A stretch of 64,000 bases of DNA from Escherichia coli O157:H7. GTDB lineage: Bacteria > Pseudomonadota > Gammaproteobacteria > Enterobacterales > Enterobacteriaceae. Below, piece after piece: positions 52,642 through 55,600 of this stretch (positions are counted from its first letter, which is position 1; every line of letters starts with the position of its first letter). Position numbers: made by a program. The stretch lies in NCBI RefSeq assembly GCF_013167455.1, contig NZ_CP038328.1; one strand, given 5' to 3'.

Positions 52642-55600
52642 TACGGTTCAGGCACAGGTTTGTAGGCCTGATAAGACGCGTAAGCGTCGCATCAGGCAAT
52701 GGTGCTCGGATGCCGGATGCGGCGTGAACGCCTTATCCGGCCTACGAGATGAAGCGATGTTTTGGCCTTACGCGACCTTTTTTGCACGCTCTTCACGGCG
52801 TGCCAAATATTCAGCCACTGTTTCAATCCGTCCCAATTCTTCCTGGGTGCGCATGTTGTTTTCAACTTCCCAAAGATCAACTGCCGCCTGGAGGTTTAGC
52901 CAAAAATCGACTGTGGTATCAAAAACTTTCGCCAGACGGAATGCCATCTCAGTGGTGAGTTTACGATTGTTATTGATCAGTGCACTGACGCTATTACGAT
53001 GAACATGCAGCAACTCTGCTAACTCATTGATTTTCAAATCTAGCGGTTCCAGATATTCATAGAGAAGAATATCTCCGGGTGTCGTCGGTTTTCTTGTTGC
53101 CTGTTTCATAGTTTTTAACTGTTGCTTCCCTGTAAATAGCGATACAAGAACATACTGAATCATACAAACACATTAAACAAGTCCCCAACTCCATTTGCGC
53201 CATCCCTCCCCGCGCGCTAGCATGATATTTCACAAAGGGAGGTCGTATGGATCTGTTGTACCGGGTAAAAACGCTTTGGGCCGCGCTGCGCGGTAATCAT
53301 TACACCTGGCCTGCCATTGATATCTCTCTTCCCGGCAATCGCCATTTTCATCTGATTGGCAGTATTCATATGGGTAGCCACGATATGGCTCCCCTACCCA
53401 CCCGTTTGCTCAAAAAGCTCAAAAACGCCGATGCGCTGATCGTCGAGGCGGATGTTTCCACCAGCGATACGCCTTTTGCTAATTTGCCTGCCTGCGAGGC
53501 GCTGGAAGAGCGCATTAGCGAGGAGCAACTCCAAAAACTGCAGCACATTAGCCAGGAGATGGGCATTTCTCCCTCACTCTTTTCTACCCAACCGCTGTGG
53601 CAAATCGCGATGGTTCTTCAGGCGACGCAGGCACAAAAACTGGGGCTGCGGGCAGAATACGGTATCGATTATCAGCTATTGCAGGCGGCGAAGCAACAAC
53701 ATAAACCCGTGATTGAACTGGAAGGGGCGGAAAACCAGATTGCCATGTTGCTCCAGCTCCCTGACAAAGGACTGGCGCTGCTGGACGATACGCTGACCCA
53801 CTGGCATACCAACGCACGGTTGCTGCAACAAATGATGAGCTGGTGGCTGAATGCGCCGCCGCAAAATAATGAAATAACGCTGCCCAATACGTTCAGTCAG
53901 TCGCTGTACGATGTGCTGATGCATCAGCGAAATCTCGCCTGGCGGGATAAATTACGCGCCATGCCGCCGGGGCGATATGTGGTCGCGGTCGGTGCACTAC
54001 ACCTGTATGGAGAAGGGAATTTACCGCAAATGTTGCGCTAAAAAAATGGCCAATATCGCTATTGGCCCGTCAAAGAGGAATTTCATTTTTTTATTATTAT
54101 GCCGTCACTTTAAGCGACGGTGTAACTCGATTGTCGCTCAATCTCACCATCCTGCCAATACTCTTAGGCAAGATGACTCTTTTTTTTGGACCGCCATCAG
54201 GCGTATGCTTGCTTCGTTTTTTTGTTTAAGGCAGGAAAATTACCATGACACCCGCAGTTAAATCACTCGAAAAAAACAAGATTTCGTTTCAAATCCATAC
54301 CTACGAGCACGATCCGGCTGAAACCAATTTTGGCGATGAAGTCGTCAAAAAATTAGGTTTGAATCCGGATCAGGTCTACAAAACGCTGCTGGTCGCAGTG
54401 AACGGTGATATGAAACACCTTGCCGTGGCCGTTACGCCGGTCGCAGGTCAACTGGACCTTAAAAAAGTAGCAAAAGCGCTGGGTGCCAAGAAAGTTGAGA
54501 TGGCCGATCCGATGGTCGCGCAGCGTTCGACGGGATACCTGGTTGGGGGGATTAGCCCACTGGGGCAGAAAAAACGTCTGCCAACGATTATCGACGCCCC
54601 CGCACAAGAATTTGCCACTATTTATGTTTCCGGCGGCAAGCGCGGACTGGATATCGAACTGGCGGCAGGCGATCTGGCGAAGATCCTCGATGCCAAATTT
54701 GCTGATATCGCCCGCCGCGATTAAGCATTGTGCCGGATGCGAACATCCGGCACTTTCGGATTACTGCCAGCTCACCTCACCTTTCGGTTCATAAACACTC
54801 ACATCCAGCGGCGAGCTTTTCTGGATATACGCTTTCAGCACTTCGGCATCAATAAAGCCGGTATTCACATAGCCCGGTTTGTTATCAAGGCGCGGATATC
54901 CATCACCGCCGGTGGCATTGAAGTTTAATGTCGCCATACGGTAAGTTTTCGCTGGATCGACCGGTTCGCCTTTGATTTTAAGGTCGTTCAGTTTGCCGTC
55001 TTTCGCCACAAAGCTAACGTTGGCAAATTGCGGGTAGGCACCTGAATCTGGCTTCATCTGCGCGACGGCGGTCAGGTAATCAATCACCTCTTTACCGGTC
55101 ATGTCGGCATACACCACCACATTGCCGAATGGCTGCACTTTCAGCACGTTTTTATAGCTGATATCGCCTGCTTCGATAGAATCACGAATTCCGCCTCCGC
55201 TCATCACCGCAAAGTCGGCACCAGTGCGATCCATTTGTGCTGCCAGAATCAACCGCCCCATATTGGTCTGTACAAAACGCACTTTGTCACGATCGCCTTC
55301 CAGACGACCATTGGTTTCGCCTATTTTCACTTCCAGCTGCGCTTTGCCTTTGTTCTGGAACGGCGATAACAGCGAGATCATTTGCTGGTTTTCAGCGATT
55401 TCAGGGGTGTACAGCACGCGCTCGCTTTTCCCGTCTTCCCAGGTCACTTTCTTCTTCAGGTTCACCGGAATCAGCTGGTAGTTAACCATTTTCATTTCGC
55501 CGTTGCGAAACTCAAAGTCGGCCCGACCAACGTACTTGCCCCACTCATGCGCCTGTACAATCCAGATGCCGTTTTGTTGATCCGGTTTGCATGGCGTACC

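What the first reader, a model, noticed from the sequence alone, without database searches (positions are those of the whole stretch)
54041..54123. ChiX small RNA, with its terminator overlapping the ybaP stop codon
An 83-nt minus-strand element between ybaP and ybaK matches my memory of E. coli ChiX, an Hfq-dependent sRNA that represses chiP and dpiB. It would be missed by protein-centred annotation. Its terminator U-tract begins at the last base of the convergent ybaP TAA.
Basis: partly seen in the sequence, partly recalled or inferred. Interest (0 to 1): 0.4.

Follow-up and report, generated by a model that had tools for sequence, protein, structure and literature searches.

The report
ChiX small RNA gene, already known

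Summary
Window 54040..54123 (minus strand) is the chiX gene (also called sroB, micM or rybC). Rfam gives a full-length sroB hit (82.1 bits, gathering score 44, E 1.8e-10). The 84 nt, plus all 121 nt upstream as far as ybaK, are 100% identical to the curated K-12 ncRNA chiX (b4585). The seed has no mismatch. The gene lies in its usual place, on the opposite strand between ybaP and ybaK, and occurs once in 5422 of 5426 complete E. coli genomes.

A sigma-70-like promoter (TTGGCA, 17 nt, GACAAT) sits 6 nt upstream of the 5' end. The RNA has a 5' hairpin, an AAN-rich linker, a C/U-rich seed and a terminator hairpin followed by seven U. The seed is perfectly complementary over 12 nt to the chiP Shine-Dalgarno region (also intact in an O157:H7 genome 99.9% identical to the window), to the chbB-chbC decoy and to the dpiB leader.

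One correction: the RNA is 84 nt, not 83. Its U-tract covers both A's of the ybaP TAA, as in the K-12 annotation and the Term-seq 3' end. This 2-nt overlap is kept in 67 of 87 sampled Enterobacterales species.

Verdict: reader supported, already known, low interest.

The parts
54040..54123 (-). chiX (sroB/micM/rybC) small RNA gene, 84 nt; the 5' end is 54123 and the 3' end is 54040
   Evidence: Rfam RF00368, 82.1 bits. It is 84/84 identical to K-12 chiX b4585. The K-12 Term-seq 3' end at 507287 corresponds to window 54040.
54130..54158 (-). Sigma-70-like promoter: -35 TTGGCA (54158..54153), 17-nt spacer, -10 GACAAT (54135..54130); 6 nt separate the -10 hexamer from the 5' end at 54123
   Evidence: Consensus scan. 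This was the single promoter-like site in the 600-nt region scanned, no more than the shuffles give (mean 0.9), so its position and conservation carry the argument, not the count. GACAAT is present at the matching position in 38 of 88 related loci and TTGGCA in 27. The sequence is identical to K-12. Promoter activity was not tested here.
54102..54120 (-). 5' stem-loop (ChiX nt 4-22, 8 bp)
   Evidence: MFE fold. A 5' fold of -5 kcal/mol or better, nearly always a single hairpin, is present in 73 of 81 distinct homologue sequences, with very different stem sequences.
54081..54098 (-). A-rich linker (ChiX nt 26-43): AAU AAU AAA AAA AUG AAA, four consecutive AAN triplets plus one more; presumed binding site for the Hfq distal face
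   Evidence: Read directly from the sequence. ChiX is a class II sRNA that uses the proximal and distal faces of Hfq and needs a strong AAN motif (PMC7987339). Binding in this strain is inferred.
54066..54080 (-). Seed (ChiX nt 44-58, UUCCUCUUUGACGGG), which pairs with chiP, dpiB and the chbB-chbC decoy
   Evidence: 12-nt perfect complements were found: chiP CGUCAAAGAGGA (covers the Shine-Dalgarno sequence, 8 nt before the AUG), dpiB CCGUCAAAGAGG and chbBC CCCGUCAAAGAG. AAATTCCTCTTTGAC is invariant in the 81-sequence alignment, but it was the search pattern, so that invariance is circular. It is upper-case in the Rfam consensus.
54048..54067 (-). Terminator hairpin GGCCAAUA-GCGA-UAUUGGCC (8 bp, 4 of them G-C)
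   Evidence: Terminator scan and fold. Across the 81 sequences 92% of cells are paired and 4 pairs show compensatory changes; slid controls give 29-54% paired.
54040..54046 (-). U7 tail of the terminator; binds the Hfq proximal face; 54040 and 54041 are also the two A's of the ybaP TAA
   Evidence: Sequence. Term-seq 3' end at the last U. Role of the poly-U tail from PMC5778611 and PMC7987339.
53247..54041 (+). ybaP (TraB/GumN family protein), convergent with chiX; stop codon TAA at 54039..54041
   Evidence: ORF list and annotation of identical sequence.
54245..54724 (+). ybaK (Cys-tRNA(Pro)/Cys-tRNA(Cys) deacylase), transcribed divergently from chiX
   Evidence: ORF list and annotation. ybaK is found upstream of chiX wherever enough upstream sequence was held, except in the two Proteus loci.

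Best explanation
Window 54040..54123 (minus strand) encodes ChiX, a trans-acting, Hfq-dependent small RNA. It is transcribed from its own sigma-70 promoter and ends at an intrinsic terminator whose U7 tail overlaps the last two bases of the convergent ybaP stop codon. The RNA has four parts. A 5' hairpin probably protects the 5' end. An AAN-rich linker, together with the 3' U-tail, clamps the RNA onto the distal and proximal faces of Hfq (class II mode). A C/U-rich seed (nt 44-58) is partly buried in the base of the terminator stem. The seed pairs with the Shine-Dalgarno region of chiP mRNA, which blocks translation and, according to the literature, permits Rho-dependent termination within chiPQ. 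It also pairs with the dpiB leader. When chitosugars induce the chb operon, the chbB-chbC spacer pairs with the same seed as a decoy and triggers ChiX decay, which de-represses the chitoporin. The chiP-leader fragment ChiZ is a second sponge. Shown here: sequence identity, family membership, synteny, promoter and terminator signals, structural conservation, and seed-target complementarity. Taken from experiments on the identical K-12 sequence: expression, the 3' end, Hfq binding and regulation. Inferred: that the same holds in this O157:H7-like strain.
For: Rfam sroB hit, full length, 82.1 bits against a gathering score of 44. The sequence is 84/84 identical to K-12 chiX and the upstream region is identical too. 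It is a single-copy gene in 5422 of 5426 complete E. coli genomes, at 99% identity or more in 5011 of them. The promoter-like and terminator-like sites are placed correctly. The fold gives -24.1 kcal/mol, z = -3.9. 12-nt perfect seed matches exist to chiP, dpiB and chbBC; seed-region duplexes of -21.0 to -28.5 kcal/mol were equalled by 0-5 of 300 shuffles. The chiP site is intact in O157:H7 PV15-279, whose sequence is colinear with the window at 99.9% identity. Ninety homologues were recovered across Enterobacterales; in 87 of them ybaP lies convergently just downstream, and ybaK lies upstream wherever enough sequence was held, except in Proteus. The 5' hairpin is kept with divergent stem sequences and the terminator stem covaries. 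K-12 Term-seq gives a very strong 3' end exactly at the last U. Literature on function: PMC4098024, PMC7815308, PMC5778611, PMC7987339, PMC3536696 reference 19.
Against: Nothing in the sequence argues against it. No expression data exist for this particular strain. Target regulation was not tested here, only complementarity. The window itself holds none of the targets, so the chiP site was checked in a closely related O157:H7 genome, and the chb and dpiB sites were checked only in K-12. The invariance of the seed in my cross-species set is circular because the seed was the search pattern.
Confidence: 0.97

Rival explanations
1. The hairpin and A/T run are just the 3' end of ybaP (a terminator or 3' UTR of the + strand gene), and there is no independent minus-strand RNA gene.
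For: The hairpin lies immediately after the ybaP stop codon. One RIL-seq pipeline labels the region 'ybaP.EST3UTR' (PMC10954441).
Against: On the + strand the hairpin is preceded, not followed, by the homopolymer run, and the scan finds a terminator only on the minus strand. Term-seq maps the strong 3' end on the chiX strand. The same RIL-seq paper explicitly re-labels ybaP.EST3UTR as ChiX. A conserved promoter, 5' hairpin and seed lie upstream on the minus strand.
Confidence: 0.01
2. Besides its trans-acting role, the locus works in cis. Because ybaP and ybaK are co-directional and chiX lies antisense between them, ybaP read-through transcripts would be perfect antisense sponges of ChiX, or strong chiX transcription would insulate ybaK from ybaP. 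On this view the conserved stop-codon/terminator overlap reflects selection for that coupling.
For: The 2-nt overlap of the ybaP TAA with the U-tract is kept in 67 of 87 species-level loci, across 54-99% YbaP identity, and at least 1 nt of overlap is kept in 75 of 87. ybaP has no canonical terminator of its own before chiX. In K-12 a Rho-dependent region lies 181 nt past the ChiX 3' end, antisense within ybaP, so some convergent read-through does occur.
Against: Once a stop codon and a U-tract share bases, purifying selection on each keeps the overlap without any functional coupling. In 12 of 87 loci the two are 4-231 nt apart and chiX is still conserved. No ybaP-sense 3' end or antisense-ChiX transcript appears in the Term-seq passages retrieved. 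I found no literature report of such coupling.
Confidence: 0.1
3. The region encodes a small protein on the + strand (the mechanical ORFs 53977..54261, 94 aa, or 54062..54229, 55 aa).
For: Both ORFs appear in the six-frame list.
Against: They are purely mechanical ORFs that run across the ybaP stop codon, the chiX gene and the chiX promoter. No annotation in K-12 or O157:H7 supports them. The conservation pattern, with an invariant seed, covarying stems and a variable 5' stem sequence, is that of an RNA and not of a coding frame.
Confidence: 0.01

Closest known systems
E. coli K-12 ChiX (b4585; synonyms SroB, MicM, RybC; Rfam RF00368 sroB)
   Same: Every one of the 84 nt, the 121-nt upstream region with the promoter, the flanking genes ybaK and ybaP, and the 2-nt overlap with the ybaP stop codon.
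   Different: Nothing within the gene. The only nearby difference is one synonymous-looking substitution inside ybaP, 16 nt beyond the 3' end. The host is an O157:H7-like strain rather than K-12.
ChiX of Salmonella and other Enterobacterales (Citrobacter, Enterobacter, Klebsiella, Serratia, Yersinia, Pantoea, Proteus)
   Same: The seed AAAUUCCUCUUUGAC, the terminator hairpin with U-tail, an AU-rich linker, a 5' hairpin, and in 87 of 90 loci ybaP convergent just downstream.
   Different: The 5' hairpin sequence and the linker differ greatly between genera. Proteus lacks the ybaP and ybaK neighbours. In some species ybaP ends 4-231 nt away from chiX, and in others it runs into chiX.
MgrR, the other well-studied class II Hfq-dependent sRNA
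   Same: The mode of Hfq binding (U-tail on the proximal face, A-rich motif on the distal face) and repression of an envelope-related mRNA by pairing near the ribosome-binding site (PMC7987339; PMC6239178).
   Different: An unrelated sequence, a different locus and different targets. MgrR is PhoP-regulated, whereas ChiX is controlled mainly through decoy or sponge RNAs.

Membership tests
ChiX / sroB (Rfam RF00368) | Match to the family covariance model at or above the curated gathering score, over the full length | tested here: met
   82.1 bits against a gathering score of 44, model positions 1-83 of 83, E 1.8e-10.
ChiX / sroB (Rfam RF00368) | Sequence identity to the type gene, E. coli K-12 chiX b4585, including the seed | tested here: met
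   84/84 identical, and the upstream 121 nt are identical as well.
ChiX / sroB (Rfam RF00368) | Genomic position: opposite strand between ybaK and ybaP | tested here: met
   ybaP 53247..54041 (+), chiX 54123..54040 (-), ybaK 54245..54724 (+). ybaP is convergent just downstream in 87 of 90 homologous loci.
ChiX / sroB (Rfam RF00368) | Independent transcription unit with its own promoter and a Rho-independent terminator | tested here: met
   TTGGCA-17-GACAAT lies 6 nt upstream of the annotated 5' end, followed downstream by an 8-bp hairpin and U7. Term-seq puts the 3' end at the last U for the identical K-12 sequence. Promoter activity in this strain was not measured.
ChiX / sroB (Rfam RF00368) | Seed complementary to the chiP translation-initiation region, the chbB-chbC decoy and dpiB | tested here: met
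   12-nt perfect Watson-Crick stretches in all three. The chiP site is identical in K-12 and in O157:H7 PV15-279.
ChiX / sroB (Rfam RF00368) | Actual repression of chiP and dpiB, and decay triggered by the chb decoy | not testable with these tools
   Known from experiments on the identical K-12 and Salmonella sequences (PMC4098024; PMC7815308). This needs genetics in this strain.
Class II Hfq-dependent sRNAs | 3' poly-U tail after a terminator hairpin (binds the proximal face) | tested here: met
   U7 at 54046..54040.
Class II Hfq-dependent sRNAs | Run of ARN/AAN triplets in a single-stranded region (binds the distal face) | tested here: met
   AAU AAU AAA AAA at ChiX nt 26-37 plus AAA at 41-43. 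This stretch is unpaired in the centroid structure up to nt 32, and the motif requirement is described in PMC7987339.
Class II Hfq-dependent sRNAs | Physical binding to Hfq and dependence on Hfq for stability | not testable with these tools
   Shown for K-12 ChiX, which has the same sequence (PMC5778611; PMC7987339).

The most novel reading that the evidence does not exclude
The tight chiX/ybaP junction may be a selected cis-coupling rather than a frozen accident. The stop codon and the terminator U-tract share 2 nt in 67 of 87 sampled Enterobacterales species, and chiX lies antisense between the co-directional ybaP and ybaK. Read-through of ybaP would then generate a perfect antisense sponge for ChiX, or strong constitutive chiX transcription would act as a convergent roadblock that uncouples ybaK from ybaP.
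Probability: 0.08. Interest if true: 0.4.

Novelty: already known. Interest (0 to 1): 0.08.

Why it matters
It matters little as a discovery. ChiX is one of the best-characterised enterobacterial sRNAs: the model for decoy or 'trap-mRNA' control, for sRNA-induced Rho-dependent polarity, and for class II Hfq binding. There are two practical points. Second, the gene is 84 nt and shares two bases with the ybaP stop codon, an arrangement conserved across Enterobacterales. That overlap can mislead automated transcript labelling, as in the RIL-seq pipeline that labelled ChiX 'ybaP.EST3UTR'.

Tried and rejected
1. A full-length duplex prediction of ChiX against the targets gave over-extended, uninformative structures, and some shuffles scored better. 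I replaced it with exact-complement searches and duplexes restricted to the single-stranded seed region.

2. MAFFT did not align the 5' hairpin in register across genera, so I did not count pairs for that stem. I folded each 5' region separately instead. I counted pairs only for the terminator stem, which was well aligned.

The cross-species counts are therefore a sample, not a census, and seed invariance within the sample is circular.

4. The primary paper on dpiB regulation (PMC2714224) is not held, so that claim rests on its citation in PMC3536696 and on the complementarity I computed.

5. I considered and rejected three alternative readings: a + strand small ORF, a ybaP-only terminator, and chance similarity (see the rival explanations).

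6. The promoter hexamers could be located by simple rules in only 47 of 88 loci. I did not map promoters in the more distant genera.

Full report
**Observation**

The + strand around the finding reads ...atgttgcgcTAAaaaaatggccaatatcgctattggcccgtcaaagaggaatttcattttttt.... ybaP is the ORF 53247..54041 (+), with its TAA at 54039..54041, and ybaK is 54245..54724 (+). An Rfam scan of the whole window gives a full-length match to RF00368 (sroB) at 54123..54040 on the minus strand. The score is 82.1 bits against a gathering score of 44, E 1.8e-10, covering model positions 1-83 of 83. SroB is a synonym of ChiX, as are RybC and MicM (PMC4098024).

**Identity**

The curated K-12 MG1655 record annotates 'small regulatory RNA ChiX' (b4585) at 507204..507287 (+). 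It lies between ybaK (506603..507082, -) and ybaP (507286..508080, -). Aligning window 54245..54020 (minus strand) with K-12 507082..507307 gives 225 identical columns out of 226, and the single difference lies inside ybaP. All 84 nt of chiX, the seed included, and the entire 121-nt region up to ybaK are identical.

The 84-mer occurs once in 5422 of 5426 complete E. coli genomes, at 99% identity or more in 5011 of them. The window itself is colinear with E. coli O157:H7 PV15-279 (556370..620369, reversed) at 99.9% identity.

**Boundary correction**

The A-run on the + strand is in fact 54040..54046, so the U7 tail covers both A's of the TAA and the RNA is 84 nt. The K-12 annotation has the same 2-nt overlap. 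Term-seq in K-12 places a very strong 3' end (scores 445,279 and 552,306) at 507287. That position is classed 'primary: chiX; antisense: ybaP' and corresponds to window 54040 (Adams et al. 2021, PMC7815308, Supplementary file 1).

**Anatomy**

- **Promoter.** A sigma-70-like promoter, TTGGCA (54158..54153), 17 nt, GACAAT (54135..54130), ends 6 nt before the 5' end at 54123. It was the only promoter-like site in the 600-nt region scanned, and shuffles of that region give 0.9 such sites on average. Its weight therefore comes from its position and conservation: GACAAT is found at the matching position in 38 related loci and TTGGCA in 27.
- **Fold.** The RNA folds at -24.1 kcal/mol (z = -3.9) into a 5' hairpin (nt 4-22) and a terminator hairpin (nt 57-76), followed by U7.
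- **Linker and seed.** Between the hairpins lie AAU AAU AAA AAA AUG AAA (nt 26-43) and the seed UUCCUCUUUGACGGG (nt 44-58).

**Mechanism**

The seed is perfectly complementary over 12 nt to three known partners:

- the chiP leader (CGUCAAAGAGGA, covering the Shine-Dalgarno sequence, 8 nt before the AUG);
- the dpiB leader (CCGUCAAAGAGG, at -37..-26);
- the chbB-chbC spacer (CCCGUCAAAGAG).

Duplexes restricted to the seed region give -21.0 to -28.5 kcal/mol and were equalled by 0-5 of 300 shuffled sRNAs. The chiP site is unchanged in O157:H7 PV15-279.

The literature on the identical K-12 sequence and on Salmonella supplies the function. ChiX continuously represses the chitoporin mRNA chiP. Chitobiose-induced chb mRNA acts as a decoy that titrates and destabilises ChiX (PMC4098024). 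ChiX pairing promotes Rho-dependent regulation of chiP, and the chiP-leader fragment ChiZ is a second sponge (PMC7815308). DpiA/DpiB is repressed by RybC, another name for ChiX (Mandin & Gottesman 2009, cited in PMC3536696). ChiX binds Hfq very strongly (PMC5778611). It is a class II sRNA that uses the proximal face through its U-tail and the distal face through its AAN motif (PMC7987339).

What I showed here is sequence, structure and complementarity. Regulation in this strain is inferred from identity.

**Cross-species evidence**

I scanned the species-representative genome collection with AAATTCCTCTTTGACN{18,28}TTTTT. Ninety are chiX homologues in Enterobacterales, including Escherichia, Citrobacter, Enterobacter, Klebsiella, Raoultella, Serratia, Yersinia, Rahnella, Pantoea, Proteus, Hafnia and Buttiauxella. 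The other 30 are chance matches in unrelated phyla.

In 87 of the 90, ybaP lies convergently just downstream, and ybaK lies divergently upstream wherever enough sequence was held, except in the two Proteus loci. The 5' region folds at -5 kcal/mol or better, nearly always as a single hairpin, in 73 of 81 distinct sequences, although the stem sequences differ almost completely between genera. The terminator stem is 92% paired, with compensatory changes at 4 of its 9 pairs, against 29-54% paired in slid controls. Seed invariance in this set is circular, because the seed was the search pattern.

**The stop-codon overlap**

Among the 87 loci with ybaP, the junction falls into these classes:

| Arrangement | Loci |
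|---|---|
| ybaP TAA shares exactly 2 nt with the U-tract (YbaP identity 54-99%) | 67 |
| ybaP TGA shares 1 nt | 3 |
| ORF ends deeper inside chiX | 5 |
| 4-231 nt gap | 12 |

Of the five ORFs that end inside chiX, three end in the terminator loop, and in Phytobacter massiliensis the ORF runs antisense through all of chiX.

The overlap is therefore old and stable. The simplest reading is a frozen arrangement: both the stop codon and the U-tract are under purifying selection, so the shared bases persist.

ybaP and ybaK are co-directional with chiX antisense between them, and the hairpin is not a canonical terminator in the ybaP direction. A cis effect, such as an antisense sponge from ybaP read-through or transcriptional insulation, cannot be excluded, but nothing I found supports it. 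K-12 DirectRNA-seq does show a Rho-dependent region 181 nt past the ChiX 3' end, antisense within ybaP (Rho score 3.7; K-12 507468, about window 53859). This indicates a small amount of chiX read-through that Rho mops up.

**Annotation**

RefSeq/PGAP records with identical sequence list only ybaK and ybaP under the match. That includes O157:H7 PV15-279 and even a K-12 MG1655 derivative. One RIL-seq pipeline had to re-label 'ybaP.EST3UTR' as ChiX (PMC10954441).

**Verdict**

This is ChiX, already known, with no sequence novelty, so interest is low.

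Noticed in passing
window 19279-19356 (+), 52665-52742 (both strands), 59802-59879 (-): Three REP-type elements score as Rfam naRNA4 (RF02564), at 64-87 bits against a gathering score of 59.5. The one at 52665-52742 lies in the copA-ybaQ spacer and matches on both strands, as expected for palindromic REP pairs.
   Followed up: no
window 25605-45764 (-): A giant siiEA/BapA-like adhesin gene is split by an internal stop into ORFs of 1461 aa (41379-45764) and 5188 aa (25605-41171). It is flanked by type I secretion genes. It is about 300 bp shorter than in O157:H7 PV15-279, which suggests a repeat-number difference. The internal repeats are 72-78% identical to one another.
   Followed up: partly
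window 45867-47222 (-): A TolC-family outer-membrane ORF is intact here (451 aa) but is annotated as a frameshifted pseudogene in the otherwise 99.9% identical PV15-279 genome.
   Followed up: no
window about 6174-10370 (-): An RHS element core protein gene, with small downstream ORFs, by coordinate mapping to the PV15-279 annotation.
   Followed up: no
window 54040-54123 and the matching RefSeq records: RefSeq/PGAP annotation of E. coli genomes with identical sequence has no chiX feature. Only the curated K-12 record NC_000913.3 does.
   Followed up: yes
window about 53859 (-), equivalent to K-12 507468 (+): Published K-12 DirectRNA-seq with and without bicyclomycin lists a Rho-dependent termination region 181 nt downstream of the ChiX 3' end, antisense inside ybaP (Rho score 3.7, p 4e-10). 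This implies low-level read-through of the chiX terminator.
   Followed up: partly
L048 824-910; L058 3976-3992; L109 and L116 (same arrangement as L058): Where the U-tract is not followed by A, ybaP loses the shared TAA and reads on into chiX antisense. It ends in the terminator loop in Enterobacter sp. ENT03, Phytobacter ursingii and Kosakonia sp. S29, and only after crossing the whole chiX gene in Phytobacter massiliensis.
   Followed up: partly
window 50049-52553 (+): This is copA. The K-12 record annotates a second, joined product from its 5' end, the soluble Cu(+) chaperone made by programmed frameshifting. The same region is present here at about 97% identity.
   Followed up: no
E. coli genome collection (no window coordinates): Two of the 5422 chiX copies in complete E. 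coli assemblies sit on records labelled as plasmids. Four genomes lack chiX at megablast sensitivity.
   Followed up: no
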